A DNA stretch of 64,000 nt, taken from contig CP158635.1 in NCBI GenBank assembly GCA_050273025.1, positions 16,864,001 through 16,928,000 of the forward strand, read 5' to 3'. The translations under genes and the position numbers were made by a program. Positions within the stretch are counted from its first letter, which is position 1. Each line of letters opens with the position of its first letter. This DNA comes from Cenococcum geophilum. Lineage: Eukaryota. The notes under the pieces were generated by a model, which had not been told where the DNA came from, did no database searches, and was given only the letters and a program-made list of their open reading frames with translations. Of this stretch, positions 1 to 62,372 are shown one piece after another.

Positions 1-272
1 GTAGTACTATATTAACTAATTTTCTAGCTATATAACTAGCTTAGCGTGTTTTAGTATACTATAATGAATATAATACGCAATACTATTGCCAGGAGTTATA
101 ACTGCCTTAAATTAGATACTAAGGCCGTAGTAAAGAAAGTAAAGGAACTACTTAAGGATAACTGCTTTATACTTAGTGGCCTAGTTAGTACTCTATCTTT
201 TACTATACCTAACTAATTAAGGCTAGGATAGAGAGATAAGATTTAGGGCGCCGATTATTGCACTATATATTA

Positions 273-698
273 TATAACGGAACCTTGTAGCAAGAACTAC
301 GATAGGCTTATTATTGGGCTAGGTGTGTAGGAAATATAAGTATAAAAGTCAACAACATAATAACAACTGGTGGAGTGGTTGCCCAACAGATTAACTCCAA
401 TTATATTCTGAGAATCACTACAAAGGAAGGAACTATTTAGGTAGGGACTAAGGGTCCTTAAATACACAACCATACTCCTATAAAATCCTTCTTATATATA
501 ATATACGTTTTATATATAAGGTACGTAAGTTCCTCTCGTTCCTTTTATTTAATACGTAGCATATTATATAACCTTAGTTACTATTCCTTGTTATATAGTT
601 CTATTGGCTCTATCCTAAACCGTGCCTAAATTAACTAACTAGCTTCTTCCGTCTCTTTTCTAAGTAGTTATAACATTGTACTTAAAGCGTCCGTAATA
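273..698 (-). repeat. E1 3' LTR
   Basis: Direct repeat of 7802-8227; termini are RIP-decayed TGTTAC...GTTACA. Confidence 0.95.
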
Positions 699-806
699 CC
701 ATCTCCCTCCTCTTTATCTTTATCCTTAAAGATTTAAAACATCTCTAAGTCGTTTACTAAAGGTATAATATCCGTCTGATTAATTTGGTTAATATTATTA
801 CTTATT

Positions 807-1458
807 ATGCCTAAAGCAATTTCTTCTTTATACGCCCAACGTCGTGCTCGCACTATTGCTGTAATATTATCTCTTAGTAAGATTATGCCGTCTCTATATT
901 CTCGTTACTTAAAAGAGGGGTTGGTTTATATTATATTGGCGAACCCATCTTCACAACAACTATTTTCTTGCTTAGAGTGTACTAAAGCAAATATTCGTTT
1001 ATCCTATAACGTTCGCTCTACTTCTAATACTAAATATACGCGATCTATTACTCTTAATAGTCGTCTAGTTCTCTAATTAATTTATCTTAGGGTCTTATAT
1101 TTAATCTACTGCTATGCGGCTAAATAGTAAACTGTTATAAGCCCTTGCTAAGTTAGAACGTTCCTATAACGCGGAATAAAAGGCTCTAAATACTTAAATT
1201 GCGGCATCTACTCGTCTGCTTTATCTTAAAAAGGTTTATAAGAAGGTTTGTTTTAAGGAGTAGAAACTTATAAAATAAGGTTTATAGGAACTAGGCAATA
1301 AAAGAACGGACTTTCCTCTAACAGAGAAGGAAACAGATCTAAGTAGTTTAGTAACTGCTCTTCTTAGATCCCCCTTAGGTAACTTATTCTTTAGCAATCC
1401 TTTTTTATTAATACTGCCTAACCTAATCTCTTCTAATACTCCTATACCTTTCCTATAG
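807..1458 (+). pseudogene. Antisense accessory gene of E1: Zn2Cys6-like cluster, probable intron, coiled-coil exon
   Basis: ORF track 807-1076; de-RIP spacing C-x2-C-x6-C-x13-C-x2-C-x8-C; homologous copies in E2, E4 and E5. Confidence 0.65.
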
Positions 1459-4400
1459 CGTTCTTTAAATTCTCTAGTAGCTCCTAGGTAGTCTTAGTAT
1501 AGCCTATCCACTTAACCTCGTACTATGTTTTATTGTCAATGTTCTTATAATTAATAATCTTTAATACTTACTATTCGTCTTCTTCTTATCCTCTATACGT
1601 GTCTACTTTATAGACCGGTGGCTTAACATTTCTATATACTGGCTTTAGCATTGCGATATACTATATAGGGTAGATCTTCATTTTAGCTAGTAGGTTTAAC
1701 TTAAACGTGACCGGTGAAATCTTCTGCATAATTTCGAAAGGTCCTAGTTTAACATAGTTTAACTTCTTGCTTAGTCGTTAACTCTTAAAATTTTTATATA
1801 GTAGCCATACTTTATCTCCCTCCTTAAGATCTAGTCCCTTAGATCTCTTAGTATTATAGTACTTTTTTATTCTTTCTTATACTTTCTTTACTAATTCCAT
1901 AAGGTCTATATAAAGATTTATTAATATCTTTATTCTTTCTTTAGCTATACTACTCGTTTTCTTTACTTGCCGTAGTAACAACGATATTCTTAGCTTATAT
2001 CCGTAATTTGCCTTAAATAGTAATATGCCTATTTCTTCTTAAGGTGTTATATTATATGTAAACTATATAACTAGTAACAGTAATACCTAATTATTCTATA
2101 TATAATTAATATAATGCCTTAGATACTGCTCTAGTATCTAATTTAATTTTTCTATTTAACCGTCTGTCTGCGGATAGTATACGGTAAAAGTTACTACTTA
2201 AACTCCTTGCTTTGCTAAGAATACTTCCTAGAATACTGCTATAAATCTTAAATCTCTATCCGATATAATTTTACTTAATACTTTATATCTTATAAATACT
2301 TCTTTAATATAAATTCTAGTAATATCTTCCACTAATATTTCTTCCGTATAGGCTATAAAGTATCCCTACTTTATAAGCTTATCTATTATTACTAAAATCG
2401 CGTTATAATCTTATCCGGTAATAGAATCTTTTAATTTTAGTAACTTAATAATAAAGTCCCATAATATAACCTCCTATAGTCTTTTTAGTGTTTTAATAGG
2501 TTATAGCCCTCTATACAGCTTATACCTTATCGGTTTATTCCTTTAGTAATCTAAATATTCCTTTATAACTTTTTTAGCTATCCTCTAGATTCTATTAATA
2601 ATATACTCCTCCTAAAGTTTTAACACTAAGCCCGTAGCTCTATTATGTCCTTAAGTTAGTCCCTTATAGAAGTCTTTTATAAACTACTCTGCTATGCTTT
2701 TTAGGATATACTTTACTTTTTAATTTTTGTATATATCCGTCTATAGATCTTCTAGCTATACTTCTAGAATTCTTTATACCTAAAAGCTTTCCAGTATCTC
2801 ATAGACTTTCTCTAGTTTATTATCTTCTTAAGTTACTACAATTCTCGGATAATTATATCTAATTAATCCGTCTATATCTTTTCACAATAAAGCCCCTAAT
2901 GGCTTCTTCTTATTTTATAGTTTAGTTTTACGGCTTAGAGCATCTACCCGCGTATTATCTATACCTTTAGTATACTAAATCTTAAAATAGTATTCTATAA
3001 GCATCTCTACCCATCTAACCTATCTTTAGTTAAGTTTCTTTATTATTAGGAATCCTATTAGGTTCTTATAATCCGTCTTAACTATAAATAGTTTCTTTAT
3101 GCCTTATAAAAATGCTTTCTATTCCTTTAATACTATAACTATACCTAACAACTCCTTATTATAGATGTTATAGTTTAACTCTAGTAGTATTATCTTTTAA
3201 CTATAGTATGTTACTAGGTGCTATCTATCCTAATACCTTTATATAAAGCATGCCCTTAGTATATAGTTTAATATATCCGTCTTTACAACCGTCTCTAGTC
3301 CTAGTTAATAGATCTTAAAAACTGGCTCCTAGGTAAACAATTCTTTAACTTTTTTAAAGAGTTTTCTTTACTCCTCTCCCTATACCCATAGTTTTTCTTT
3401 CTTTATTAACCTTGTAAGTGGCTTAATATCCTTTAACTACTGCGCTATAAACCTTCTGCAGTAATTACAAAACCCTAAAAACGATCTTAACTATATAACG
3501 TTCTCTAGTTTCTACCAATTTACTATAGCCTTAATCTTCTTTAGATCTATACTAAATTAGCCTAGTTTAATAATAAATCCAATAAAATCGGTCTTCTTAG
3601 TAAAGAACTTGCATTTCTTAATTACTACTAGCATCTATTCTTCTTATAATCTCTTTAAAACCTATTTAACATATTCCCCGTATTCTTCCTTAGTTAATAA
3701 GTAGATAATAATATTGTTAAAATATACCATAATAAATTTATCTAAGTATTCTCCTAATACATTATTAATACGCTTCTAGAATATTGCTAGTGCGTTTATA
3801 AGTCCAAATTGTATAACTAATAGTTTATATAGTTTTTCCTTTAACCTAAAGGCTGCCTTTTATTTATTGCCCTCCTTAATCCTAATCTAATAGTACACCC
3901 ATCTTAGATCTATCTTTATAAAGATTTACGCATTACCTATTCTATCTTAGATTTCGCTAATTAAGAGTAAAGAATACCTATTCTTTCTAGTAATGCTATT
4001 TAACTATCTATAGTTAATACATAGCCTTAGTTTGCTATTTTTCTTTAGTACAAATAGTATTAGATATCCTGCTAATAACTATAATAGTCTAATATATCCC
4101 TTTTATAAGTTCTCTTAAATAAACTCTTTTAATACTCTACCTTCTTTTTTAGTAAGCTTATAGATTAGAAAAAACCTTAGACTTATTCCTAGTTCTAATT
4201 CTATCTTATAGTCCTATACTATATATTTTAATAGCTTTTTACTTTCTAGTAACTATAGTTTCTTACCATACTTATAGTATCTCTTTAGTATATAACTTAG
4301 TCCTTTTTCTATTTCTTTATAGGTTGCTCCTACTTAGTATTATACTAACTTAGCTTATTATCACCTCTTATAACATTAAGTATCTCTAATATTAACCTAA

Positions 4401-7757: not shown

Positions 7758-7801
7758 ATTATTTAACTTCTTATATTAATATTATAACTAGGTAGTAATT
7801 A

Positions 7802-8227
7802 TATAACGGAACCTTGTAGTAAAAACTACGATGGGCTCGTTATTAGGCTAGGTGTATAGGAAATGTAAGTATAAAAGTTAACAACGTAATAATAACTAGT
7901 GGAGTGGTTGCCCAATAGATTAACTCTAATTATATTCTAAGAATTACTACAAAGGAAGGAACTATCTAGGTAGAGACTAAGGGTCCTTAAATATACAACC
8001 GTACTCCTATAAAATCCTTCTTATACGTAATATACGTTTTATATATAAGGTATATAAGTTCCTCTCGTTCCTCTTATTTAATACGTAGCACATTATATAA
8101 CCTTAGTTACTATTCCTCGTCATATAGTTCTATCGGCTCCATCCTAGACCGTGCCTAAATTAACCAACTAGCTTCTTCCGTCTCTTCTCCAAGTAGTTAT
8201 AACATTATACTTAAAGCGTCCGTAACA
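7802..8227 (-). repeat. E1 5' LTR
   Basis: Ends GCGTCCGTAACA followed by TSD TATTA. Confidence 0.95.
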
Positions 8228-14500: not shown

Positions 14501-16359
14501 CGCTAGAATAGTATCTAAGATATTATATTAATTATACACAGAATAATTGGGTATTACTATTACTAGTTATATAGTTTATATATAATGCAACACTATAAAA
14601 AGGAATAGGCTTATTACTATTTAAGGCAAATTATAGATATAAGCTAAGAATATTATTGTTATTATAATAAGTAAAGAAAACGAGTAGTATAGCTAAAGAA
14701 AGAATAAAGATATTAATAAATCTTTATATAGACCTTATAGAATTAATAAAGAAAATATAAAAGAGAATTAAAAAGTACTATAATACTAAGAGATCTAAGG
14801 GACTAGATCTTAAGGAGGGAGATAAAGTATAGCTATTATACAAAAATTTTAAGAGTTAATAATTAAGTAAGAAGTTAGACTATGTTAGACTAGGACCTTT
14901 TAAAATTATATAAAGGATTTTACCGATTATATTTAAGTTAAACCTACTAGCTAAGATAAAGATCTACCCTATATAGTATATCGCGATACTAGAATTAGCA
15001 TATAGGAATATTAAGCTACTAATTTATAAGGCAGACACGTATAGAGGATAGGAGGAAGATAAATAGTAAGTTTTAAAAACCGTTAGTTATAAGGATATTA
15101 ACGATAAAATATAGTACGAGGTTAAGTAAATAGGCTACACTAAGACTACCTAGAAGCTACTAAAGAATTTAAAAAATGCTATAAGAAAGGTATAGGAGTA
15201 TTAAAAGAAATTAGGTTAGGCAGTATTAATAAAAAAGAATCGCTAAAAAAATAAGTTACCTAAGGGGGACCTAAGAAGAACAGTTGCCGAACTACTTAGA
15301 TCTATTTCCTTCTTAGTTAGAAAAGAATCCGTTCTTTTATTCCTAAGTTCCTATAAACCTTATTCTATAAATTTCCACTCCTTAAAACGGACCTTTTTAT
15401 AACCCTTTTTAAGACAGAGTAATTAAGCGGATGCCGCGATATGGGCTTTAAGAGCCTTCTGCTCTATATTATAAGAACGTTCCAGTTTAATAAGGGCTTA
15501 AGACAGTTTACTATTTAGCCGCGTAGTAGTAGATTAAACATAAAACTCTAAGACAAATTAATTAGGGAACTAGACGACTATTAAAAGTAATAGATTATAT
15601 ATATTTAGCATTAGAGATAAAGCAAACGTTATAGGACGAATAAATATTCGCTTTAGTATACTTTAAGTAAAAGGATAGTTATTATAAATATAAGCTCGCT
15701 AACGCAATATAGATTAACCCCTTTTTTAAATAGCGAGAACATGGAGACGGTATAATCTCACTAAGAGATAATATCGCAGCAATAGTATAAGCATGACGTT
15801 GCGCTTATAAAAAGGAAGGAGCCTTAGGTATAATAAATAATAATATTAATTAAATTAATTAAACGGATATTATACCTCTAATAGACAACTTAAAGATATT
15901 TAGAATCTTTAAGGATAAAGATAAAAAGGAGGGAGATAGTGTTACGGACGCTTTAAATATAATATTATAACTACTAGGAGAGGAGTTAAAAGAAGCTAGT
16001 TAGTTAATTTAGGTACGGTTTAAGATAAAACTAGTAGAGCTATATAATAAGGAATAGTAGCTAAGGTTATATAATGTTATACGTAGTATACGCAGTGTAT
16101 AAAGGGAATATACGTATAATATATATAACACGTACCTTATGTATAAAGGGGATTTCTTAGGAGTACGGTTGTGTATTTAAAGGACCACAGTCTCTACCTA
16201 AATAGTTCTCTCCTTTGTAGTAAATCTTAAAATATAATTAGAGTTAATTTATTAGGCAACTACTCCACTAGTTATTATTATATTGTTAACTTCTTATTTA
16301 CCTATATACCTAGCCTATTAATAAGTTTACCGTAGTTCCTACTATAAGGCTTTATTACA
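8537..16359 (+). mobile_element. E2: full-length RIP-inactivated Ty3/Gypsy chromovirus, subfamily B
   Basis: LTRs 8537-8946 and 15940-16359; TSD CTACT at 8532-8536 and 16360-16364; PPT AAAAGGAGGGAGATAG before 15940. Confidence 0.97.
8988..15246 (+). pseudogene. E2 gag-pol pseudogene
   Basis: Gag knuckle near 9990-10030 (de-RIP CINCGKQGHYVKDC); LIDSG near 11963; YLDNII (RT YxDD) near 12925; integrase and chromodomain to 15246. Confidence 0.9.
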
Positions 16360-21457: not shown

Positions 21458-22960
21458 CGAGGTCGGTTCAATAAGTATTCGGACGCCCTACCGAGCCTCA
21501 CCAAATCAAAAGGTCAACAACCAAATATGAAGCTATATTGGTAATATTTATCTATTTTTTATCCATGAAAGTCGTTCCTTCCCTGGTGATCTTTGACCTT
21601 TTGTATACGACCTGGAAGGCCTAAAATGCACTCATTAATTTCCTTAATTGAAAGCTCGTCCTATGCAGAGCTCCAAGCATGCTCTAAGGCCTCAAAGGAA
21701 GTATATATTCTATTGTCCTTGTAGATCTTTTGCTTAAGAAGCTCCCAAATATGCTCAATAGGATTTAGATCTGGCGAGTTGCCTGGCCACGACAGGAACT
21801 TAATACCCCAAGCTTCCCATAGAGGCCTAAGTAGTGCTGCATTGTGAATAGAGGCTCCGTCTTGCATAAAGGAGGCCTCTAGACGTCCGTCTCGTTGAAA
21901 TTGCTCAAAGGCGGGGCAAAGAATTGGTTTGGTGACTTCTTGATAGAATCGGAAGGCGTCAACACCTTTGCCCTCACTCCTTTTGGCCTCCTGAGGTAGT
22001 CGCGGCTCTGCAGGACGTCTGCCCGGCCTGAAGTCCTTGTATTGAGGATCCTTTTGGCGTCCTTTGAAACCAAGCTCCCCCCCTTGCTCCACCCGGTCCG
22101 CAATTTAACTGTCCATTCTGCACGCGCAGCTTCAAGATCTTCGGCGTGAGGATCCTCCCTCTGCTGCCTGGTTTCCTTCCGATATACGTGGCAGGGTCCC
22201 TTCCAATTGAATCCTATAATTCCATAGAATAGGATACCCTGTCTAGGACCCCCGAAGGTCTTATCAGTTGTATCTTCCAGCCAGCCTTCATCTGCAAGAC
22301 GGGTGATACGTCGCTTTCCTTTTACCTCTCCCATACGCCCAAGAGTTTTGTCGGAAAATAACACTTGATTGAAGCCCATATTAGGGGGGTATTGTGGGCC
22401 ACAGGGCCACTCATTGTGTTTAATTGCCCACGCCAACCGAGCTTCCTTCATAGCCTCTGAAAGGAAGGGCTTTTTGTAGACACGATATCGTCCATAGCCG
22501 CGTGAGAAGAAGGCTGAATTAATCGTTCCGCGTGAGGCTTTGATGTTAAGTTCGGCAGCAATCCGAGTCCATCCCCTAAGCCTTTGAGGCTTATTCTTTG
22601 TTGCGTGCGCAATTAGTTGATCAATATTATGGTTGGAAAGGATGCGAGGAGCTCCGGAACGCTTGTACGAAGCTAGATTATGAGGCTCTAGTGGGTGGGA
22701 GTTGTCTTGAGAGGCAGCCTCGAGGGCGTGTTTGGCGACAGAATGAACTGTTGACTTAGGGAGATGTCGGCCTAAATCGCGCTTTGAATTGGCAGAAATA
22801 ACCCCTAAGGGTGTCCTTTTAGTTGTAACTTCGTGAACAATAATTGCGCGGTGGGGTTCTGACAATTCAGAGCCTTTGCGACCCATATTGGTGGTTTATT
22901 TTAGTGGTGGAGAGCCTTGTTTACTACATTTGGGGGTTTGATTTTGGGTGAGACCTGGCA
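21458..22960 (-). mobile_element. Tc1/mariner element, lightly RIPed, one TIR missing
   Basis: TA|CGAGGTCGGTTCAATAAGTATTCGGAC at the left end; inner repeat CTCACCAAATCAAA mirrored at ~22937-22952, but the outer right TIR is absent. Confidence 0.8.
21559..22886 (-). pseudogene. Tc1-family DD34E transposase, frameshifted, with one premature stop
   Basis: HTH region with KKPFLS, VLFSD(K), FMQDGASIH...WPGNSPDLNPIE (34 residues between D and E); frameshift at ~22090-22160; TAG at 21661 in place of Trp, natural C-terminus continues to 21559. Confidence 0.92.
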
Positions 22961-29839: not shown

Positions 29840-32800
29840 TGTAACGGAACCTTGTAGTAAGAACTACGATGGGCTCGTTATTAGGCTAGGTGTGTAGGAA
29901 ATGCAAGTATAAAAGTTAACAACGTAATAACAACTGGTGGAGTAGTTGCCTAATAGATTAACTCTAATTATATTCTAAGAATTACTATAAGGAAGGAACT
30001 ATCTAGGTAGGGATTAAGGGTCCTTAAATATATAACCGTACTCCTATAAAATCCTTCTTATACGTAATATACGTCTTATCTATATTAAATATAACGTCCT
30101 TTATATTTAGTGTAGCTAATATATTTAACTATTATGTGACTTGCTTATTATTCCTTATTATATAGTTCTACGGGTTCTATCCTGGTCTATATCTATATTA
30201 ACTAACTAGCTTCTTCTATTTCTTCTTTAAGTAGTTATAGTATTATACTTAAAGCGTTCGTAATACTATCTCCCTCCTCTTTATCTTTGTCCTTAAAGAT
30301 ACCTAGTATCTCTAGGTTGTTTACTAGAGGTATAATATCCGTCTAATTAATTTAGTTAATATTATTGCTTATTATACCTAAAGCAATTTCTTCCCTCTCT
30401 TAGGTTAAGCGTCACCTTCGTACCGTCTCCTTAATACTATTACTTAGTAAAGTAATAGCAATCCCTTACTCTTGTTATATAAAAGAGGGGTTAAGTTATA
30501 TTATAATTGCGAGTCCTTCTAGTTACTAACCCTCCTTTTATTCTAAATGTACTTGCGCTAATATACGTTTATTATATAACGTTTATTCTATATTTAATAC
30601 TAAGTATTTATATCCTATTACTCTTAATAGTCTTTAAGTTCCCTAAGTAATTTATTATAGGGTCTTATGTTTAATCTACTGCTGCGAAGCTTAATAGTAA
30701 GCTAGCCTCTACGCTGCTTAAGGTTTAGCGTACCTTAGAAGAGTCTATACGTATCCTTAAAGCTTAGCGTCTAGCTTATACTCATCTTTAGCGTTTAAAA
30801 TATATCTATAAGAAAGTTCGTTTAAAGGAGTAGAAGCTTATTTAATAAGGTCTTTAGGAACTAGGTAATAAAAGAACGGATTTTCTTCTAATAAAGAAGG
30901 AAATAAATCTAAGTAGTTTAGCAACTGCTCTTCTTAGGTCCCCCTTAGGTAACTTATTCTTTAGCGATCCTTTTTTATTAATACTGCCTAACCTAATCTC
31001 TTCTAATACTCCTATACCTTTCCTATAGCGTTCTTTAAATTCTTTAGTAGCTTCTAGGTAGTCTTAGTGTAGCCTATTTACTTAACCTTATACTATATCT
31101 TATTATTAATATCCTTATAATTAATAATCTTTAATACTTACTATTTATCTTCTTTTTATCCTCTATATATGTCTGCTTTATAAACCAGTGGCTTAATATT
31201 CCTATATACTGGCTCTAGTATTGCGATATACTATATAGGGTAGATCTTTATTTTAGTTAGTAGGTTTAACTTAAATATAACTAGTGAAATCTTTTATATA
31301 ATTTTAAAAGGTCTTAGTTTAACGTAGTCCAACTTCTTACTTAGTTGTTAACTCTTAAAAATTTTATATAGTAGCTATACTTTATCTCTCTCCTTAAGAT
31401 CTAGTCCCTTAGATCTCTTAGCATTATAGTACTTTTTTATTCTTTCTTATACTTTCTTTACTAATTCTATAAGGTCTACATAAAGATTTATTAACGTCTT
31501 TATTTTTTCTTTAGCTGTACTACTTGTTTTCTTTATTTACTATAGTAACAACGATATTCTTAGCTTATATCTATAATTTGCCTTAAATAGTAATATACCT
31601 ATTCCTTCTTAAGGTATTATATTATATGCAAACTATATAACTAGTAATAGTAATACCTAATTATTCTATGCATAATTAATATAATGCCTTAGATACTACT
31701 CTAGTGTCTAGTTTAATCTTTCTATTTAACTGTCTATCTGCGGATAGTATGCGGTAAAAGTTACTACTTAAACTCTTTGCTCTACTAAGAATACTTCCTA
31801 AAATACTGCTATAAATCTTAGATCTCTATCTAATATAATTTTATTTAGTGCTCTATGTCTTATAAATACTTCTTTAATATAGATTCTAGTAATATCTTCC
31901 GCTAATATTTCTTCCGTATAGGCTATAAAGTATCCCTACTTTATAAGCTTGTCTATTATTACTAAAATTATATTATAATCTTATCCGGTAATAGGATCTT
32001 TTAATTTTAGTAACTTAATAATAAAGTCCTATAATATAACCTTTTATAGTCTTTCTAGTATTTTAATAGGTTATAGCCCTCTATACGGCTTATACCTTAT
32101 TAGTTTATTCCTTTAGTAATTTAGATATTTCTTTATAACCTTTCTAGCTATTCTTTAGATTCTGTTAATAATATACTCCTTCTAGAGTCTTAACACTAAG
32201 CCCATAGCTCCATTATGTCCTTAAGTTAGTCCCTTATAAAAATCTTCTATAAACTACTCTACTATACTTTTTAGGATATACTTCACTTCTTAATTTTTAT
32301 ATATATCCGTCTATAGATCTTCTAGCTATACTTCTAGAATTCTTTATACCTAAAAGCTTTCCGGTATCTCGTAAACTTTCTTTAGTTTATTATCTTCTTA
32401 AGTTACTATAATTTTTAGATAATTATATCTAATTAATCCGTCTATATCTTTTCGCAATAAAGCCCCTAATAGCTTTTCCTTATTTTATGGTTCAGCTTTA
32501 CGGCTTAGAGCATCTGCCCGCGTATTGTCTATACCTTTAGTATACTAAATCTTAAAATAGTATTCTATAAGCATCTCTACCTATCTAACCTATCTTTAGT
32601 TAAGTTCCTTTATTATTAGGAATCCTATTAGGTTCTTATAATCCGTCTTAACTATAAATAGTTTCTTTGTGCCTTATAAGAATGCTCTCTATTCCTTTAA
32701 TACTGTAACTATACCTAATAACTCCTTATTATAGATGTTATAGTTTAACTCTAGTAGTGTTATCTTTTAACTATAGTATGCCACTAGGTGCCATCTATCT

Positions 32801-51600: not shown

Positions 51601-53836
51601 TAAAGAAGTGTTTGTAAGATATAGAGCACTAAGTAAAATTATATCGGATAGAGATCTAAGATTCGTAGCAGTATTCTAAAAAGTATTCTTAGCGGAGTAA
51701 GGAGTTTAAGTAGTAACTTCTACTATATACCATTTGCAGACAGACGGTCAAACAGAAAGATTAAATTAGACGCTAAAATAGTATCTAAGGCATTATATTA
51801 ATTATGCATAGAATAATTAGGTATCACTATTACCAGTTATATAGTTTATATATAATATAATACCTTAAAAAGGAATAGGCATATTACTATTTAAGGCAAA
51901 TTACGGATATAAGCTAAGAATATCGTTATTACTACAGTAAGCGAAGAAAATAAGTAGTACAGCTAAAGAAAGAATAAAGATATTAATAAATCTTTATATA
52001 GACCTTATAGAATTAGTAAAAAAAGTATAAGAGAGAATAAAAAAGTACTATAATGCTAAGAGATCTAAGGGACCAGATCTTAAGGAGGGAGATAAAGTGT
52101 GGCTACTATACAAAAATTTTAAGAGTTAATAATTAAGTAAGAAGTTGGACCATATTAAACTAGGACCTTTTAAAATTACATAAAAGATTTTACCGGTTAC
52201 GTTTAAGTTAAACCTACTAGCTAAAATAAAGATCTACCCTATATAGTATATCGTAATGCTAGAGCCAGTATATAGGAATATTAAGCCACTGGTTTATAAA
52301 GTAGACATATATAAAGGATAAAAAGAAGACAAATGGTAAGTATTAAAGATCGTTAATTATAAGGACATTAACGACGAAATATAGTATAAGGTTAAGTAGA
52401 TAGGCTATACTAAGACTACCTAGGAGCTACTAGAGAATTTAAAGAACGCTATAGAAAAGGTATAGAAGTATTAGAAGAGATTAGGTCAGGCAGCATTAAT
52501 AAAGAAGGATCGCTAAAAAATAAGTCACCTAAGGGGGACCTAAGAAGAGTAGTTACTAAGCTACTCGGATCTATTTCCTTCTCTATTAGAAAAGAATCTA
52601 TTCTTTTATTACCTAGTTCCTAAAGACCTTATTAAATAAGCTTCCACTCCTTTAAATAAACTTTCTTATAGATACGTTCTAAACGCTAAAGACGAGCATA
52701 AGCTAGATGCTAAGCTTTAAGAACACGTGCGGACTCTTCTAAGGCATATTAAACCTTAAGCAGCGCAGAGGCTAATTGTGACGGCTCGAACCATCGAACA
52801 AATGTCTCGACAGAGACTTGAACGAATGCTTGCAAGATCAAGCGAACGAATGCTGTATTACGAAGATATTAAGCTAAGGAGCAAGAGAAGGTGGTGAGGC
52901 CACGTCTATATACACACGCCAAGTCTTAAGCGAACCCCTGACTAGGTGACGCGCTCCAGCGCCGTCACACTAATTTACCGTTAAGTTTCGCAGTAATAGA
53001 TTAAACATGAGACCCTATAATAAATTACTTAGGGAACTTAAAGACTATTAAGAGTAATAGGATATATATACTTAATATTAGACGTAGAACGAACGTTATA
53101 TAATAAACGTATATTAATACAAGTGCATTTAAAACAAGAGGAAGGTTAGTGACTAGAGGGACTCGCAATCGTAATATAACTTAACCCCTCTTTTGCACAA
53201 CAAGAGTAAGGTATTACTATTACTTTACCTAGTAATAGTATTAAAGAGACAGTATAAAGGCGACGCTTAACCCAAGAGAGAAAAGAAATTGCTTTAGGTA
53301 TAATAAGCAATAATATTAACTAAATTAATTAGACGGATATTATACCTCTAGTAAACAACCTAGAGATGCTAGGTATCTTTAAGGACAAAGATAAAGAGGA
53401 GGGAGATGGTGTTACGGACGCTTTAAGTATAATATTACGACTACTTAAAGAAGAGACGGAAGAAGCTAGTTAGTTAATTTAGGCACGGTCCAGAATAGAG
53501 CCAATAAAACTATATAATAAGGAATAGTAACTAAGGTCATATAATAGTTAAACGTATTAGCTGCGTTAAACGTAAGGGACGTCACGTTTAATATAGATAA
53601 GGCGTATATTACGTACAAGAAGGATTTTATAGGAGTATGGTTGTGTATTTAAGGACCCTTAGTCCCTACCTAGATAGTTCCTTCCTTATAGTAATTCTTA
53701 GAATACAATTAGAGTTAATCTATTAGGCAACCACTCCACCAGTTATTATTACGTTGTTGACTTTTATACTTGCATTTCCTACACACCTAGCCCAATAACG
53801 AGCCTATCGTAGTTCTTGCTACAAGGTTCCGTTATA
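45681..53836 (+). mobile_element. E5: full-length subfamily-A Gypsy inserted in the E6 cargo ORF
   Basis: 427-bp LTRs 45681-46107 and 53410-53836; TSD TACTT; gag-pol ~46152-52516. Confidence 0.97.
52777..52969. mobile_element. Solo LTR (193 bp), little RIP
   Basis: Perfect 9-bp inverted termini TGTGACGGC/GCCGTCACA; TSD CTAAT. Confidence 0.93.
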
Positions 53837-61032: not shown

Positions 61033-61194
61033 TATATTTAAAAGTTAAATAATACGCAGTTAACCTACTTAGCAACTTTAAAAGGTAACTGTATATTTCT
61101 TAACATGTAATTAAGGTAAAGTTATATACTATATATTTAACTATTATATATTATCTAATATAATCTTATACAATCTTATATAGTCTTATTACTT

Positions 61195-61601
61195 AGAGGC
61201 TCTGCACAAGGCTCTGCACGAGGCTCTACACGAAGCTCTACACGAAGCTCTGCGTACAGAGGCTCTGCACGAAGCTCTGCGCATAGAGGCTCTGCACGAA
61301 GCTCTGCGCATAGAGGCTCTGCACGAAGCTCTGCACGAAGCTCTGCACGAAGCTCTACGTACAGAGGCTCTGCACGAGGCTCTGCGCGAGGCTCTGCGTA
61401 CGGAGGCTCTGCACGAAGCTCTGCACGAAGCTCTGCACGAGGCTCTGCGCGAAGCTCTGCATACGGAGGCTCTACACGAAGCTCTACACGAAGCTCTACA
61501 CGAAGCTCTATACGAAGCTCTACGTACAGAGGCTCTGCACAAGGCTCTGCGCGAAGCTCTGCGTGAAGCTCTGCGTACGGAGGCTCTACACGAAGCTCTG
61601 C
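61195..61601. repeat. 12/16-bp tandem array GAAGCTCTGCAC / GAAGCTCTGCGTACGG
   Basis: Visible periodicity; produces the spurious RASC ORF. Confidence 0.95.
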
Positions 61602-61739
61602 ATCGGGTCCCCGCTATATTCCCAATAGCGTCTACACGTGTCTCTGCCTATGTAGCCGCCTTATTTTTTACCCTTCCTTCCTTCCTTACATCCTCCCTAC
61701 CTAGGGAGGCACTAGAACGGCAGCCAGCAGAGGACCGTT

Positions 61740-61920
61740 GCTAGAACTAGATGACTATCGCTAGAATCAGACGACCGTCGCCAGAACCAGACGACCGTTA
61801 CCAGAACCAGACGACCGTTACCAGAACCAGACGACCGTCGCCAGAGCCAGACGACCGTCGCCAGAACCAGACGACCGTCGCCAGAACCAGACGACTATCG
61901 CCAGAGCCAGACGACAACGA
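61740..61920. repeat. 20-bp tandem array CCAGAACCAGACGACCGTCG
   Basis: About 9 head-to-tail units, no spacers. Confidence 0.95.
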
Positions 61921-61969
61921 CTAGCCAGCGAACACTATAAACGATTCGATCGATTGATCGAATCAAGGT

Positions 61970-62372
61970 AGCACAGACAGGTAGGCATAAACAGGGAGAT
62001 ACTAACGGGTAGGCAGATGCAGACAGGTAGGCAGATACAGACAGGTAAGTAGATACAAACAGGCAAGCAAATGTAAACAAGTAGGTAGATATAGATAGGT
62101 AAGTAGATATAGATAGGTAAGTAGATATAGATAGGTAAGTAGATATAGACAGGTAGGCAGATATAGATAGGTAAGTAGATGCAGACAGGCAAGTAGATAT
62201 AGATAGATAGGCGATATAGACGGGTAGGCAATGCAAATAGGTAGGTAGATATAGACAGGTAAGTAGATGCAGATAGGCAAGTAGATATAGATAGGTAGGC
62301 AATGTAGACAGGTAGGCAATGTAGACAAGTAGGCAATGTAGGCAGGTAGGTAAGTTAATAGGTAGATAGGTA
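61970..62372. repeat. 17-18 bp tandem array GTAGGCAGATGCAGACAG with RIP variants
   Basis: Visible periodicity; produces three spurious minus-strand ORFs. Confidence 0.92.

What the first reader, a model, noticed from the sequence alone, without database searches (positions are those of the whole stretch)
807..1458. Antisense Zn2Cys6-like gene between pol and 3' LTR in the main Gypsy family
Seen in four copies (E1 807+, E2 15831-, E4 30374+, E5 53301-), always antisense to gag-pol and starting about 110 bp from the 3' LTR. Combining copies gives C-x2-C-x6-C-x13-C-x2-C-x8-C: Cys1 is intact in E2, Cys2 in E5, Cys4/5 in E1 and E5, and Cys3/6 are TAT in all copies (TGT->TAT RIP inferred). Established: this spacing fits the fungal binuclear zinc cluster. 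A probable intron (~1035-1127) is followed by a coiled-coil exon (de-RIP AQIAASARL..LEKVHKKVRSKEWKL..QGLQEL) that overlaps the end of pol. Inference: an element-encoded transcription regulator or anti-silencing factor. An intron could persist in a retroelement because it is antisense to the genomic RNA.
Basis: partly seen in the sequence, partly recalled or inferred. Interest (0 to 1): 0.72.

Follow-up and report, generated by a model that had tools for sequence, protein, structure and literature searches.

The report
Spliced antisense gene in fungal Gypsy retrotransposon
The Gypsy-type retrotransposons in this mutation-riddled fungal region once carried a real extra gene, read backwards between pol and the right-hand repeat, that has one small intron and encodes a six-cysteine module followed by a long pairing helix; such backward genes are already known in fungal elements, so it is a good new example rather than a new kind of thing.

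Summary
Four RIP-degraded copies carry, antisense to gag-pol and 110 nt from the 3' LTR, a two-exon gene. In E1 it is exon 1 807-1035, intron 1036-1090 and exon 2 1091-1458.

It was a real coding gene:
- 84 DNA copies show RIP-proof period-3 variation (pos2 < pos1 < pos3).
- Only in-frame indels occur in exon 1 (84 of 84).
- pN/pS is 0.25-0.41.

The intron is real but shorter than proposed: 55 nt, with its 3' end at 1090 rather than 1127. Seven database proteins on nine short contigs read exon 1 joined to exon 2, and a genomic relative has the unspliced form.

Cys3 and Cys6, Tyr in all four window copies, are Cys elsewhere. All six columns are C/Y only in 273 sequences, and 3 of 215 sequences keep all six.

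Membership of the fungal Zn2Cys6 family is not supported:
- Zn_clus stays below its cut-off (4 of 86 at E <= 1, half-domain matches).
- No PDB sequence match was found.
- Both AlphaFold models are unconfident over the Cys module.

Exon 2 is a confident long helix. A homodimer model passes its controls (0.39 against 0.11) but is antiparallel.

Closest known is the antisense gene brtn of Boty-like elements, which could not be compared. Function is inferred: a zinc-binding, dimeric regulator.

The parts
269..696 (-). 3' LTR of element E1 (the element lies on the minus strand)
   Evidence: 428-nt match at 92% to 7798-8225. RNA reads break off at 696 (loose ends).
701..732 (-). Polypurine tract, and the start of the conserved 106-nt spacer between LTR and ATG
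   Evidence: Purine-rich when read on the minus strand. The spacer length is 106 nt in 81 of 84 copies.
807..1035 (+). E1 exon 1. It runs from the ATG through a basic and hydrophobic N-terminus to the six-Cys module. 4 of the 6 Cys are now Tyr.
1036..1090 (+). E1 intron, 55 nt. The 5' site GT is RIP-mutated to AT; the branch-like CTAAT lies at 1073-1077; the 3' TAG lies at 1088-1090.
   Evidence: Column counts. Homology with L065 breaks and resumes here. Joined forms P0129, P0173, P0209-P0212 and P0241.
1091..1458 (+). E1 exon 2. It holds a linker, a long coiled-coil helix and a conserved C-terminal tail, with the stop TAG at 1456-1458. RIP stops lie inside it, including TAA 1102-1104, which is Gln in intact relatives.
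1391..3499 (-). 3' part of pol of E1: RNase H, integrase SH3 and a chromodomain-like end. The candidate stop is TAA 1393-1391.
   Evidence: Pfam matches. The stop position comes and is uncertain because of RIP.
15603..15831 (-). E2 exon 1
   Evidence: Mapped through alignment A1.
15548..15602 (-). E2 intron
15179..15547 (-). E2 exon 2 (carries a 1-nt insertion near its end)
30374..30605 (+). E4 exon 1 (variant 2)
30606..30660 (+). E4 intron
30661..31028 (+). E4 exon 2
53070..53301 (-). E5 exon 1 (variant 2)
53015..53069 (-). E5 intron
52449..53014 (-). E5 exon 2, interrupted by a 198-bp insertion at 52778-52975

Best explanation
What it is. The region is the decayed remnant of a genuine accessory gene of this Ty3/Gypsy family. 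The gene lies between the end of pol and the polypurine tract and is read on the strand opposite to gag-pol.

Shown:
- It was under purifying selection as a protein-coding gene in the active ancestors.
- It has two exons and a 55-nt intron with fungal-type signals.
- Joined (intron-less) reading frames of close, un-RIPped relatives exist in public assemblies.
- The product is about 198 aa. It has a short basic and hydrophobic N-terminus, six invariant Cys spaced C-x2-C-x6-C-x13-C-x2-C-x8-C, a ~15-residue linker that spans the exon junction, a confidently predicted helix of about 60 residues, and a conserved tail whose last ~22 codons overlap pol.

Inferred mechanism:
1. The gene is transcribed from an antisense promoter in or next to the 3' LTR.
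2. The intron is removed only from this antisense RNA. The genomic RNA is the other strand, so the intron is copied at every retrotransposition.
3. The protein binds zinc through the six Cys and pairs through the helix.
4. It acts in the nucleus as a sequence-specific nucleic-acid-binding regulator of the element's own expression, or of host silencing of it. This would work like the antisense bZIP protein HBZ of HTLV-1.

All four window copies are dead. They carry RIP stops, three have lost the ATG, and all four have the 5' splice-site G changed to A.
For: Coding:
- Purine/pyrimidine (RIP-proof) diversity in 84 copies by codon position 1/2/3 is 0.058/0.023/0.141 in exon 1 and 0.098/0.060/0.209 in the variable half of exon 2.
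- Exon 1 has six length classes, and all 84 of 84 lengths are multiples of 3. The variable part of exon 2 is in frame in 79 of 84.
- After per-group de-RIP, the exon 1 frame holds 7 stops summed over 10 groups, against 23-76 in the other five frames.
- pN/pS over 45 group pairs is 0.25 (exon 1) and 0.41 (exon 2), against about 1.0-1.6 in the out-of-phase frames. For V1 against V2 in the window alone the values are 0.18 and 0.23.

Spread:
- 220 proteins at E <= 10.
- 232 cluster representatives at E <= 0.001.
- 606 confirmed metagenome stretches.

Intron:
- The GT, CTAA and TAG columns are conserved apart from RIP changes.
- In the diverged copy L065, homology stops right after AAGT and resumes at CTAAT...TAG, with 130 nt in between.
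- P0129, P0173, P0209-P0212 and P0241 read exon 1 fused to exon 2.
- tblastn splits these proteins into two frames about 55 nt apart.
- The same 90% cluster also holds the unspliced genomic form, P0158, on a 120-kb contig.

Cysteines:
- The six columns are C/Y only in 273 sequences: C 111, 116, 45, 68, 161 and 88.
- 3 of 215 pattern-bearing sequences keep all six Cys.

Helix and pairing:
- AF2 pLDDT is 95-99 over residues 51-110 of P0241.
- A homodimer of residues 12-100 of P0209 scores 0.39, with the best of 3 controls at 0.11. The mark was reached by 21 of 30 solved same-chain pairs and 0 of 23 single chains. On eukaryotes it was reached by 17 of 29, but by only 1 of 7 without an older solved relative.
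- The three runs agree in at least 98% of contacts, and the partner pLDDT is at least 84.
Against: Zinc-cluster identity is not shown:
- Pfam Zn_clus reaches at most 14.5 bits (cut-off 21). It matches only model positions ~16-38, and only in 4 of 86 members at E <= 1.
- The profile finds no PDB sequence at E <= 10.
- Both AF2 models have pLDDT 40-58 over the Cys module.
- The only nearly un-RIPped sequence that covers Cys3 (P0241) has Tyr there.

Other points:
- The dimer model is antiparallel, unlike Gal4-type parallel coils. It may also reflect the generic tendency of long helices to pair.
- Exon 2's strand cannot be told from stops or pN/pS alone: the antisense partner frame scores the same, 0.41. 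The strand rests on pos2 < pos1 and on continuity with exon 1.
- The RNA run laid on E1 gave almost no depth over 767-1252 and no joint at the intron.
- Whether the contigs with the joined form are RNA-derived is not known to me.
- No DNA-binding, zinc or regulatory function was tested.
Confidence: 0.6

Rival explanations
1. The gene is real, but the product is not a DNA-binding transcription regulator. The six Cys would form some other zinc module, or a disulphide-stabilised one. The coiled coil would serve protein-protein or RNA-related work in the element's cycle, such as binding Gag, integrase or the genomic RNA, or countering a host factor.
For: - There is no significant match to Zn_clus or any other DNA-binding family, and no PDB match.
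- The stretch between Cys2 and Cys3 holds few basic residues (consensus).
- The modelled dimer is antiparallel, which would put the two Cys modules far apart.
- Exon 2 matches no Pfam family.
Against: - The order Cys6 module, short linker, coiled coil is that of Gal4-type DNA-binding domains (recalled, not tested).
- The only Pfam family hit by more than two members is Zn_clus: 4 of 86, all below cut-off.
Confidence: 0.3
2. The period-3 signal comes from the other strand. On this view the region is a C-terminal extension of pol, or another sense-strand ORF, and the antisense frame is open only as its mirror image.
For: - The minus-strand frame that shares third positions with exon 1 is the pol frame itself, and it has pN/pS 0.33 (0.22).
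- For exon 2 the mirror frame has the same pN/pS (0.41) and as few residual stops: 24 against 23 internal.
Against: - Exon 1's plus frame has 7 residual stops against 26 in its mirror.
- Diversity is lowest at plus-strand position 2 in both exons.
- The two blocks would need two frame changes on the minus strand.
- An ATG, or its RIP product ATA, heads the plus frame in 82 of 82 sequences that cover it.
- Database ORFs that join the two blocks lie on the plus strand.
- The pol frame carries 27 stops over 10 groups between columns 701 and 879.
Confidence: 0.03
3. There is no gene: a non-coding spacer in which abundant RIP-made TAT codons happen to fall at zinc-cluster spacing.
For:
- Pfam finds nothing in the four window copies.
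Against: - In-frame indels only (84 of 84), period-3 transversion diversity and low pN/pS.
- The six columns hold only C or Y across 273 sequences from many lineages. Arg-derived columns, by contrast, show R/C/Y/H mixtures.
- Three natural sequences have all six Cys.
Confidence: 0.01

Closest known systems
[quoted passage not shown] 2011, Virology 417:248)
   Same: It is an additional gene in a fungal Gypsy element, antisense to gag-pol, between pol and the 3' LTR. I saw this in passages of PMC7264820, PMC8365987 and PMC4227169. A Monilinia transcript matches both truncated Pol and BRTN (passage of PMC5987419), which suggests the same abutting arrangement.
   Different: Homology is unknown. 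The original paper is not held and no BRTN sequence was available. None of my database hits carried that name or an NCBI source. I do not know whether BRTN has the six Cys, the intron or the coil.
Antisense additional ORFs between pol and the 3' LTR of plant LTR retrotransposons (aORF-3R: Grande1, RIRE2, Retand, PvRetro13)
   Same: They have the same position and orientation and are conserved across copies of a family. Their function is unknown (PMC7264820, passages).
   Different: They are in plants and in other Gypsy lineages. No sequence relation was tested. No Cys6-plus-coil architecture was mentioned in the passages I read.
HBZ of HTLV-1 (antisense bZIP factor); details recalled, not from any call
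   Same: It is an antisense gene next to the 3' LTR, has a spliced mRNA, and encodes a small nuclear protein with a nucleic-acid-binding part followed by a dimerising coiled coil that modulates sense transcription. It is an analogy for how this gene might work.
   Different: It belongs to a vertebrate retrovirus and has a basic-zipper domain, not a Cys module. There is no homology, and no bZIP family appeared in any Pfam scan.
Fungal Zn2Cys6 binuclear-cluster DNA-binding domains (Gal4 type; Pfam PF00172)
   Same: There are six Cys in two C-x2-C-x6/8-C triads, followed by a linker and a coiled coil. Weak sub-threshold Zn_clus matches occur.
   Different: - It falls below the Pfam cut-off in every sequence.
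- Only one triad aligns, and to the second half of the model.
- The inter-triad loop is 13 residues.
- The Cys2-Cys3 stretch is A-K-[KE]-G-L-V.
- The modelled coil is antiparallel.
- The fold was not resolved.

Membership tests
Zn2Cys6 binuclear cluster (Pfam Zn_clus, PF00172) | Profile match at or above the curated cut-off (21 bits) | tested here: not met
   - 0 of 4 window copies match.
- The best score is 14.5 bits, and 4 of 86 members match at E <= 1.
- 0 of the 3 natural six-Cys sequences match at E <= 10.
- Matches cover only model positions ~16-38 of 39.
Zn2Cys6 binuclear cluster (Pfam Zn_clus, PF00172) | Six Cys spaced C-x2-C-x6-C-x(5-12)-C-x2-C-x(6-8)-C (pattern recalled from PROSITE, not from a call) | tested here: inconclusive
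   The spacing is 2/6/13/2/8, so the loop is one residue over the recalled range. All six columns are C/Y only in 273 sequences.
Zn2Cys6 binuclear cluster (Pfam Zn_clus, PF00172) | Basic residues between Cys2 and Cys3 that contact DNA (recalled) | tested here: not met
   The consensus is [AIVT]-K-[KE]-G-L-V, with Gly in 203 of 270 sequences at the position where I recall the pattern requiring R/K/H/Q.
Zn2Cys6 binuclear cluster (Pfam Zn_clus, PF00172) | The fold: two short helices around a two-zinc cluster | tested here: inconclusive
   Two AF2 models place helices starting at each C-x2-C, but with pLDDT 40-58. No fold search was run on so weak a model. The profile finds no PDB sequence.
Zn2Cys6 binuclear cluster (Pfam Zn_clus, PF00172) | A linker and dimerising coiled coil after the cluster | tested here: met
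   A helix spans residues 47-109 of P0241 at pLDDT 95-99. The homodimer model scores 0.39 against a best control of 0.11; the mark was reached by 21 of 30 solved pairs and 0 of 23 single chains. The modelled orientation is antiparallel.
Zn2Cys6 binuclear cluster (Pfam Zn_clus, PF00172) | Binds two zinc ions and CGG-type DNA sites | not testable with these tools
   Needs protein chemistry.
brtn (antisense gene of Boty-like elements) | Antisense gene between pol and the 3' LTR of a fungal Ty3/Gypsy element | tested here: met
   literature passages.
brtn (antisense gene of Boty-like elements) | Sequence homology to BRTN | not testable with these tools
Antisense additional ORF of LTR retrotransposons (aORF-3R) | An ORF between pol and the 3' LTR on the opposite strand, kept across copies with conservation like other element proteins | tested here: met
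   84 aligned copies have pN/pS 0.25-0.41, against 0.29 for the pol 3' end.
DUF3716 (PF12511) | Profile match at or above the cut-off (22 bits) | tested here: not met
   There is one hit of 14.8 bits among 20 sequences. The family is not among those listed for the 86 members.

The most novel reading that the evidence does not exclude
Fungal chromoviruses may carry an HBZ-like antisense regulator: a spliced, 3'-LTR-proximal gene for a zinc-binding, coiled-coil dimer. Its N-terminus and first coil half are cassettes that diverge several-fold faster, or more deeply, than the neighbouring pol. These segments would set lineage-specific recognition, for example of the element's own LTR or of a host silencing factor. 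That would give each sub-lineage its own copy-number control or counter-silencing specificity.
Probability: 0.15. Interest if true: 0.8.

Novelty: new member of a known kind. Interest (0 to 1): 0.55.

Why it matters
Accessory genes of LTR retrotransposons are rare and almost none has a known function. This work gives one in fungi a firm gene model (start, intron, stop, overlap with pol). It also provides hundreds of natural variants, evidence of selection, and a testable architecture of six Cys plus a pairing helix.

If the product regulates the element or its silencing, it would be a fungal counterpart of retroviral antisense regulators. The work also shows that a coding gene can be recovered from heavily RIP-mutated DNA by using purine/pyrimidine coding and indel phase.

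If it proves to be a brtn homologue, the result adds an architecture and intron model to a gene for which I found no function reported in the passages I read.

Tried and rejected
- **Whole genome:** none is held for this window, so copies were taken from the window and from 80 metagenome loci.
- **Earlier findings:** nothing by place or by sequence.
- **Pfam on the four window copies:** nothing.
- **'Longer' protein search:** it returned only read-through ORFs and no annotated full-length protein.
- **RNA runs:** one search and one lay.
  - Run X2 gave 81 laid reads, 80 of them under 90% alike.
  - Depth was about 0-1.5 over 767-1252.
  - There was no joint at the intron.
  - Two listed joints (759>966, 1035>1277) come from contigs of diverged copies with unaligned letters in between and are not splices.
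  - This says nothing either way about expression.
rejected. The 'TAG' at 1125-1127 is TAG, CGG, TAA, TGG or GTC in different groups, and it sits inside codons that vary like coding D/N and S/G/N.
- **Intron from CAG|GTTCCC to AAG|CTT:** rejected. The 5' site is poor, the AAG is absent in three groups, and the segment is not conserved in L065.
- **Ribosomal frameshift between the two frames:** set aside once the joined forms were found.
- **Stop codons as a guide to frame ends:** abandoned. CpA sites are RIP-saturated, with 52 of 71 YpA columns holding under 10% C.
- **ESM Atlas on the Cys module:** only unnamed Ascomycota clusters at 0.81-0.87, which is the chance range.
- **Fold search:** not run, because the Cys module is below pLDDT 60 in both models.
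- **Cluster look-ups:** no names.
- **Literature searches for a zinc-cluster antisense ORF in fungal retrotransposons:** nothing beyond brtn. These cover only the held library, and the brtn paper itself is not held.

Full report
**Setting.** The window is AT-rich (GC 0.27-0.41). It is filled with RIP-like, transition-riddled copies of one Ty3/Gypsy family (repeat families and long inverted matches). No whole genome is held for it.

Element E1 lies on the minus strand, with LTRs at 269-696 and 7798-8225 (92% alike). Its minus-strand frame matches RT_RNaseH, RT_RNaseH_2 and the Tf2-type integrase SH3 domain. A chromodomain-like end can be recognised by eye. A purine-rich tract (read on the minus strand) sits at 701-732.

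**The observation.** They fall into two variants, V1 (E1, E2) and V2 (E4, E5) (alignment A1). The ATG at 807 is 110 nt from the LTR end.

The spacing is 2/6/13/2/8, and Cys3 and Cys6 are Tyr in all four. E1 807-1076 is one of only eight ORFs of 80 aa or more in the 64 kb. Pfam sees nothing in the four copies.

**Is it coding?** Flanks and pol differ between V1 and V2 only by transitions. Positions 825-1250, however, are deeply diverged and show period 3.
- Exon 1 differences by codon position are 20/14/39 (transversions 9/2/15).
- dN/dS is 0.18, and one stop-bearing codon column remains in 67.
- The variable part of exon 2 gives 17/13/28 and dN/dS 0.23.

A profile of the four copies found 220 proteins at E <= 10 (120 listed), all RIP-like ORFs from metagenome sources. 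A metagenome scan found 606 confirmed stretches, of which 80 loci were kept. All 80 align over the full 1.2 kb at 81-87% to E1.

In the 84-copy alignment I recoded bases as purine or pyrimidine, which RIP cannot change.
- Diversity by codon position 1/2/3 is 0.058/0.023/0.141 in exon 1.
- It is 0.098/0.060/0.209 in the variable half of exon 2.
- It is flat, at about 0.05, in the neighbouring pol stretch.

Further tests agree.
- Exon 1 has six length classes, and all 84 of 84 lengths are multiples of three.
- The variable part of exon 2 is in frame in 79 of 84.
- After de-RIP within ten groups of three or more copies, the exon 1 frame keeps 7 stops in total, against 23-76 for the other five frames.
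- pN/pS over the 45 group pairs is 0.25 (exon 1) and 0.41 (exon 2). It is about 1.0-1.6 out of phase and 0.29 for pol.

**Which strand?** The mirror frames, which share third positions, have similar pN/pS (0.33 and 0.41). For exon 2 the residual stops also do not decide. The plus strand is favoured for four reasons:
- exon 1 has fewer stops (7 against 26);
- position 2 is the least variable in both exons;
- the plus frame is headed by a conserved start, M in 69 and I in 13 of 82 sequences;
- the joined forms described below lie on this strand.

**The cysteines.** In 273 aligned sequences from two searches, the six columns contain only C or Y, apart from one or two stray residues. The C counts are 111, 116, 45, 68, 161 and 88. 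Arg-derived columns, by contrast, show R/C/Y/H mixtures (first seen in 124 sequences).

Three of 215 pattern-bearing sequences keep all six Cys (P0290, P0125, P0121).

A seventh C/Y-only column just after the module is an artefact. It is the T|GT read across the 5' splice site, whose G is RIP-prone. One caution applies: P0241, the least mutated sequence that covers Cys3, has Tyr there, though it does carry some RIP-type changes.

**The intron.** The coding phase changes by +1 between consensus columns ~450 and ~510. It is TAG, CGG, TAA, TGG or GTC in different groups, and it lies inside codons that vary like coding residues.

The only conserved canonical signals that keep the frame are these:
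- a 5' site GT[AG]CGC at E1 1036, RIP-mutated to AT in all four window copies;
- a CTAA[TG] box at 1073-1077;
- a TAG at 1088-1090.

This gives a 55-nt intron. The model required the in-frame TAA at 1102-1104 to be an old CAA. That is plausible, because CpA sites are RIP-saturated: 52 of 71 YpA columns hold under 10% C.

A diverged copy, L065, loses homology right after AAGT and regains it at CTAAT...TAG, with 130 nt in between.

Direct support came from a search with exon 2 (82 proteins).
- P0129 and P0173 read ...SCDVRSVS[ND]AE-WS[QR]VQSAAAKLDGEL..., which is the end of exon 1 joined to the start of exon 2, with Gln at the disputed codon.
- One 90% cluster holds both the unspliced genomic form (P0158 on a 120-kb contig, and P0208) and four joined forms (P0209-P0212, on six contigs of 1-1.6 kb).
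- P0241 is a further joined form.
- tblastn splits these proteins into two frames about 55 nt apart on E1 and on the loci.

I do not know whether those short contigs are RNA-derived. The one RNA lay I could make on E1 was uninformative, with almost no depth over the gene and no joint at the intron.

**The gene model.**
- In E1: exon 1 807-1035, intron 1036-1090, exon 2 1091-1458.
- The pol frame's first stop after the chromodomain-like end is TAA 1393-1391. The last ~22 codons therefore overlap pol. This probably explains why the C-terminal tail is so conserved even in distant lineages.
- The product is about 198 aa.

**What is the protein?**
- *Zn_clus.* It never reaches its cut-off: the best score is 14.5 bits against 21, and 4 of 86 members match at E <= 1. 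None of the three six-Cys sequences matches at E <= 10, and only one triad aligns, to the second half of the model.
- *DUF3716.* It appeared once at 14.8 bits.
- *PDB.* The profile finds no sequence at E <= 10.
- *ESM Atlas.* It gives only unnamed Ascomycota clusters at chance-level scores.
- *AF2 models.* Two models place short helices at each C-x2-C, but with pLDDT 40-58. The fold is unresolved, so I ran no fold search.
- *Exon 2.* It has no Pfam family and is a confident helix: residues 47-109 of P0241, pLDDT 95-99.
- *Homodimer model* (residues 12-100 of P0209).
  - It supports pairing: score 0.39, with the best of three controls at 0.11.
  - The mark was reached by 21 of 30 solved same-chain pairs and 0 of 23 single chains.
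  - On eukaryotes it was reached by 17 of 29, but by only 1 of 7 without an older solved relative.
  - The runs agree in at least 98% of contacts, and pLDDT is at least 84.
  - My alignment was not used.
  - The contact list (46 with 46, 29 with 57, 25 with 60) shows an antiparallel pair.

The architecture therefore resembles a Gal4-type DNA-binding region: Cys6, linker, pairing helix. Family membership, however, fails the tests that could be run.

**An unexpected feature.** Third-position transversion diversity in the accessory gene (0.141 and 0.209) is 2.5-4 times that of the adjacent pol third positions (0.055). The intron and the LTR-to-ATG spacer sit near the baseline, at 0.079 and 0.024. 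Clustering gives 25 groups at 4% transversion distance. Either the variable segments are exchanged between lineages as cassettes, or they evolve much faster than the rest of the element. I did not resolve which.

**Comparison with the known.** An antisense gene, brtn, between pol and the 3' LTR is described for Boty-like elements of Botrytis and Sclerotinia. I saw this in passages of PMC8365987, PMC7264820, PMC4227169 and PMC5987419. The original paper is not held.

Plant elements have analogous antisense ORFs of unknown function (PMC7264820, passages). I could not compare sequences with BRTN. My searches of the held library found no report of a zinc-cluster-like antisense ORF in a fungal retrotransposon. 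One survey figure legend mentions 'additional ORF with unknown function' in fungal chromoviruses (PMC2864245, passage).

**Verdict.** The gene is real (about 0.95) and spliced as described (about 0.9). In this window it is a fossil. The zinc-binding, dimeric regulator reading is the best-supported mechanism but rests on inference (about 0.4-0.45). It is a new, well-characterised member of a known kind.

Noticed in passing
window 52778-52975 (inside E5 exon 2): A 198-bp GC-rich insertion that is not RIP-mutated. It has short terminal inverted repeats (GTGACGGC...GCCGTCAC) and AATTA on both flanks, so it looks like a MITE. There is one copy in the window. The same end appears as a loose end at E1 position 2234 in a metatranscriptome contig, which suggests it has inserted elsewhere in related copies.
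   Followed up: partly
window 807-1300 and the homologous stretches of L001-L080: The accessory gene's variable segments carry 2.5-4 times the third-position transversion diversity of the adjacent pol 3' end. They split the copies into 25 groups. The cause could be cassette exchange or fast evolution.
   Followed up: partly
window 21879-22886 (-): A 335-aa ORF in a GC-richer island matches HTH_Tnp_Tc3_2 (4e-10). It is a Tc1/mariner-type transposase remnant among the Gypsy copies.
   Followed up: partly
window 61189-62336 (-): Several overlapping TTG-started ORFs of 108-135 aa lie in the GC-richest part of the window (GC 0.41). The one tested has no Pfam family.
   Followed up: partly
L065:2712-3400: This is a diverged sub-lineage of the same gene. 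Its intron is 130 nt, and it has an unrelated sequence between the 5' site and the branch box.
   Followed up: yes
window 1036, 15602, 30606, 53069: All four window copies have the G of the 5' splice site changed to A, while the 3' TAG is intact. Across 84 copies only 10 keep the G.
   Followed up: yes
P0260, P0298 (database proteins): In some distant sub-lineages the unspliced reading runs in frame from exon 1 through the intron into exon 2. Intron retention there could still give a long product.
   Followed up: no
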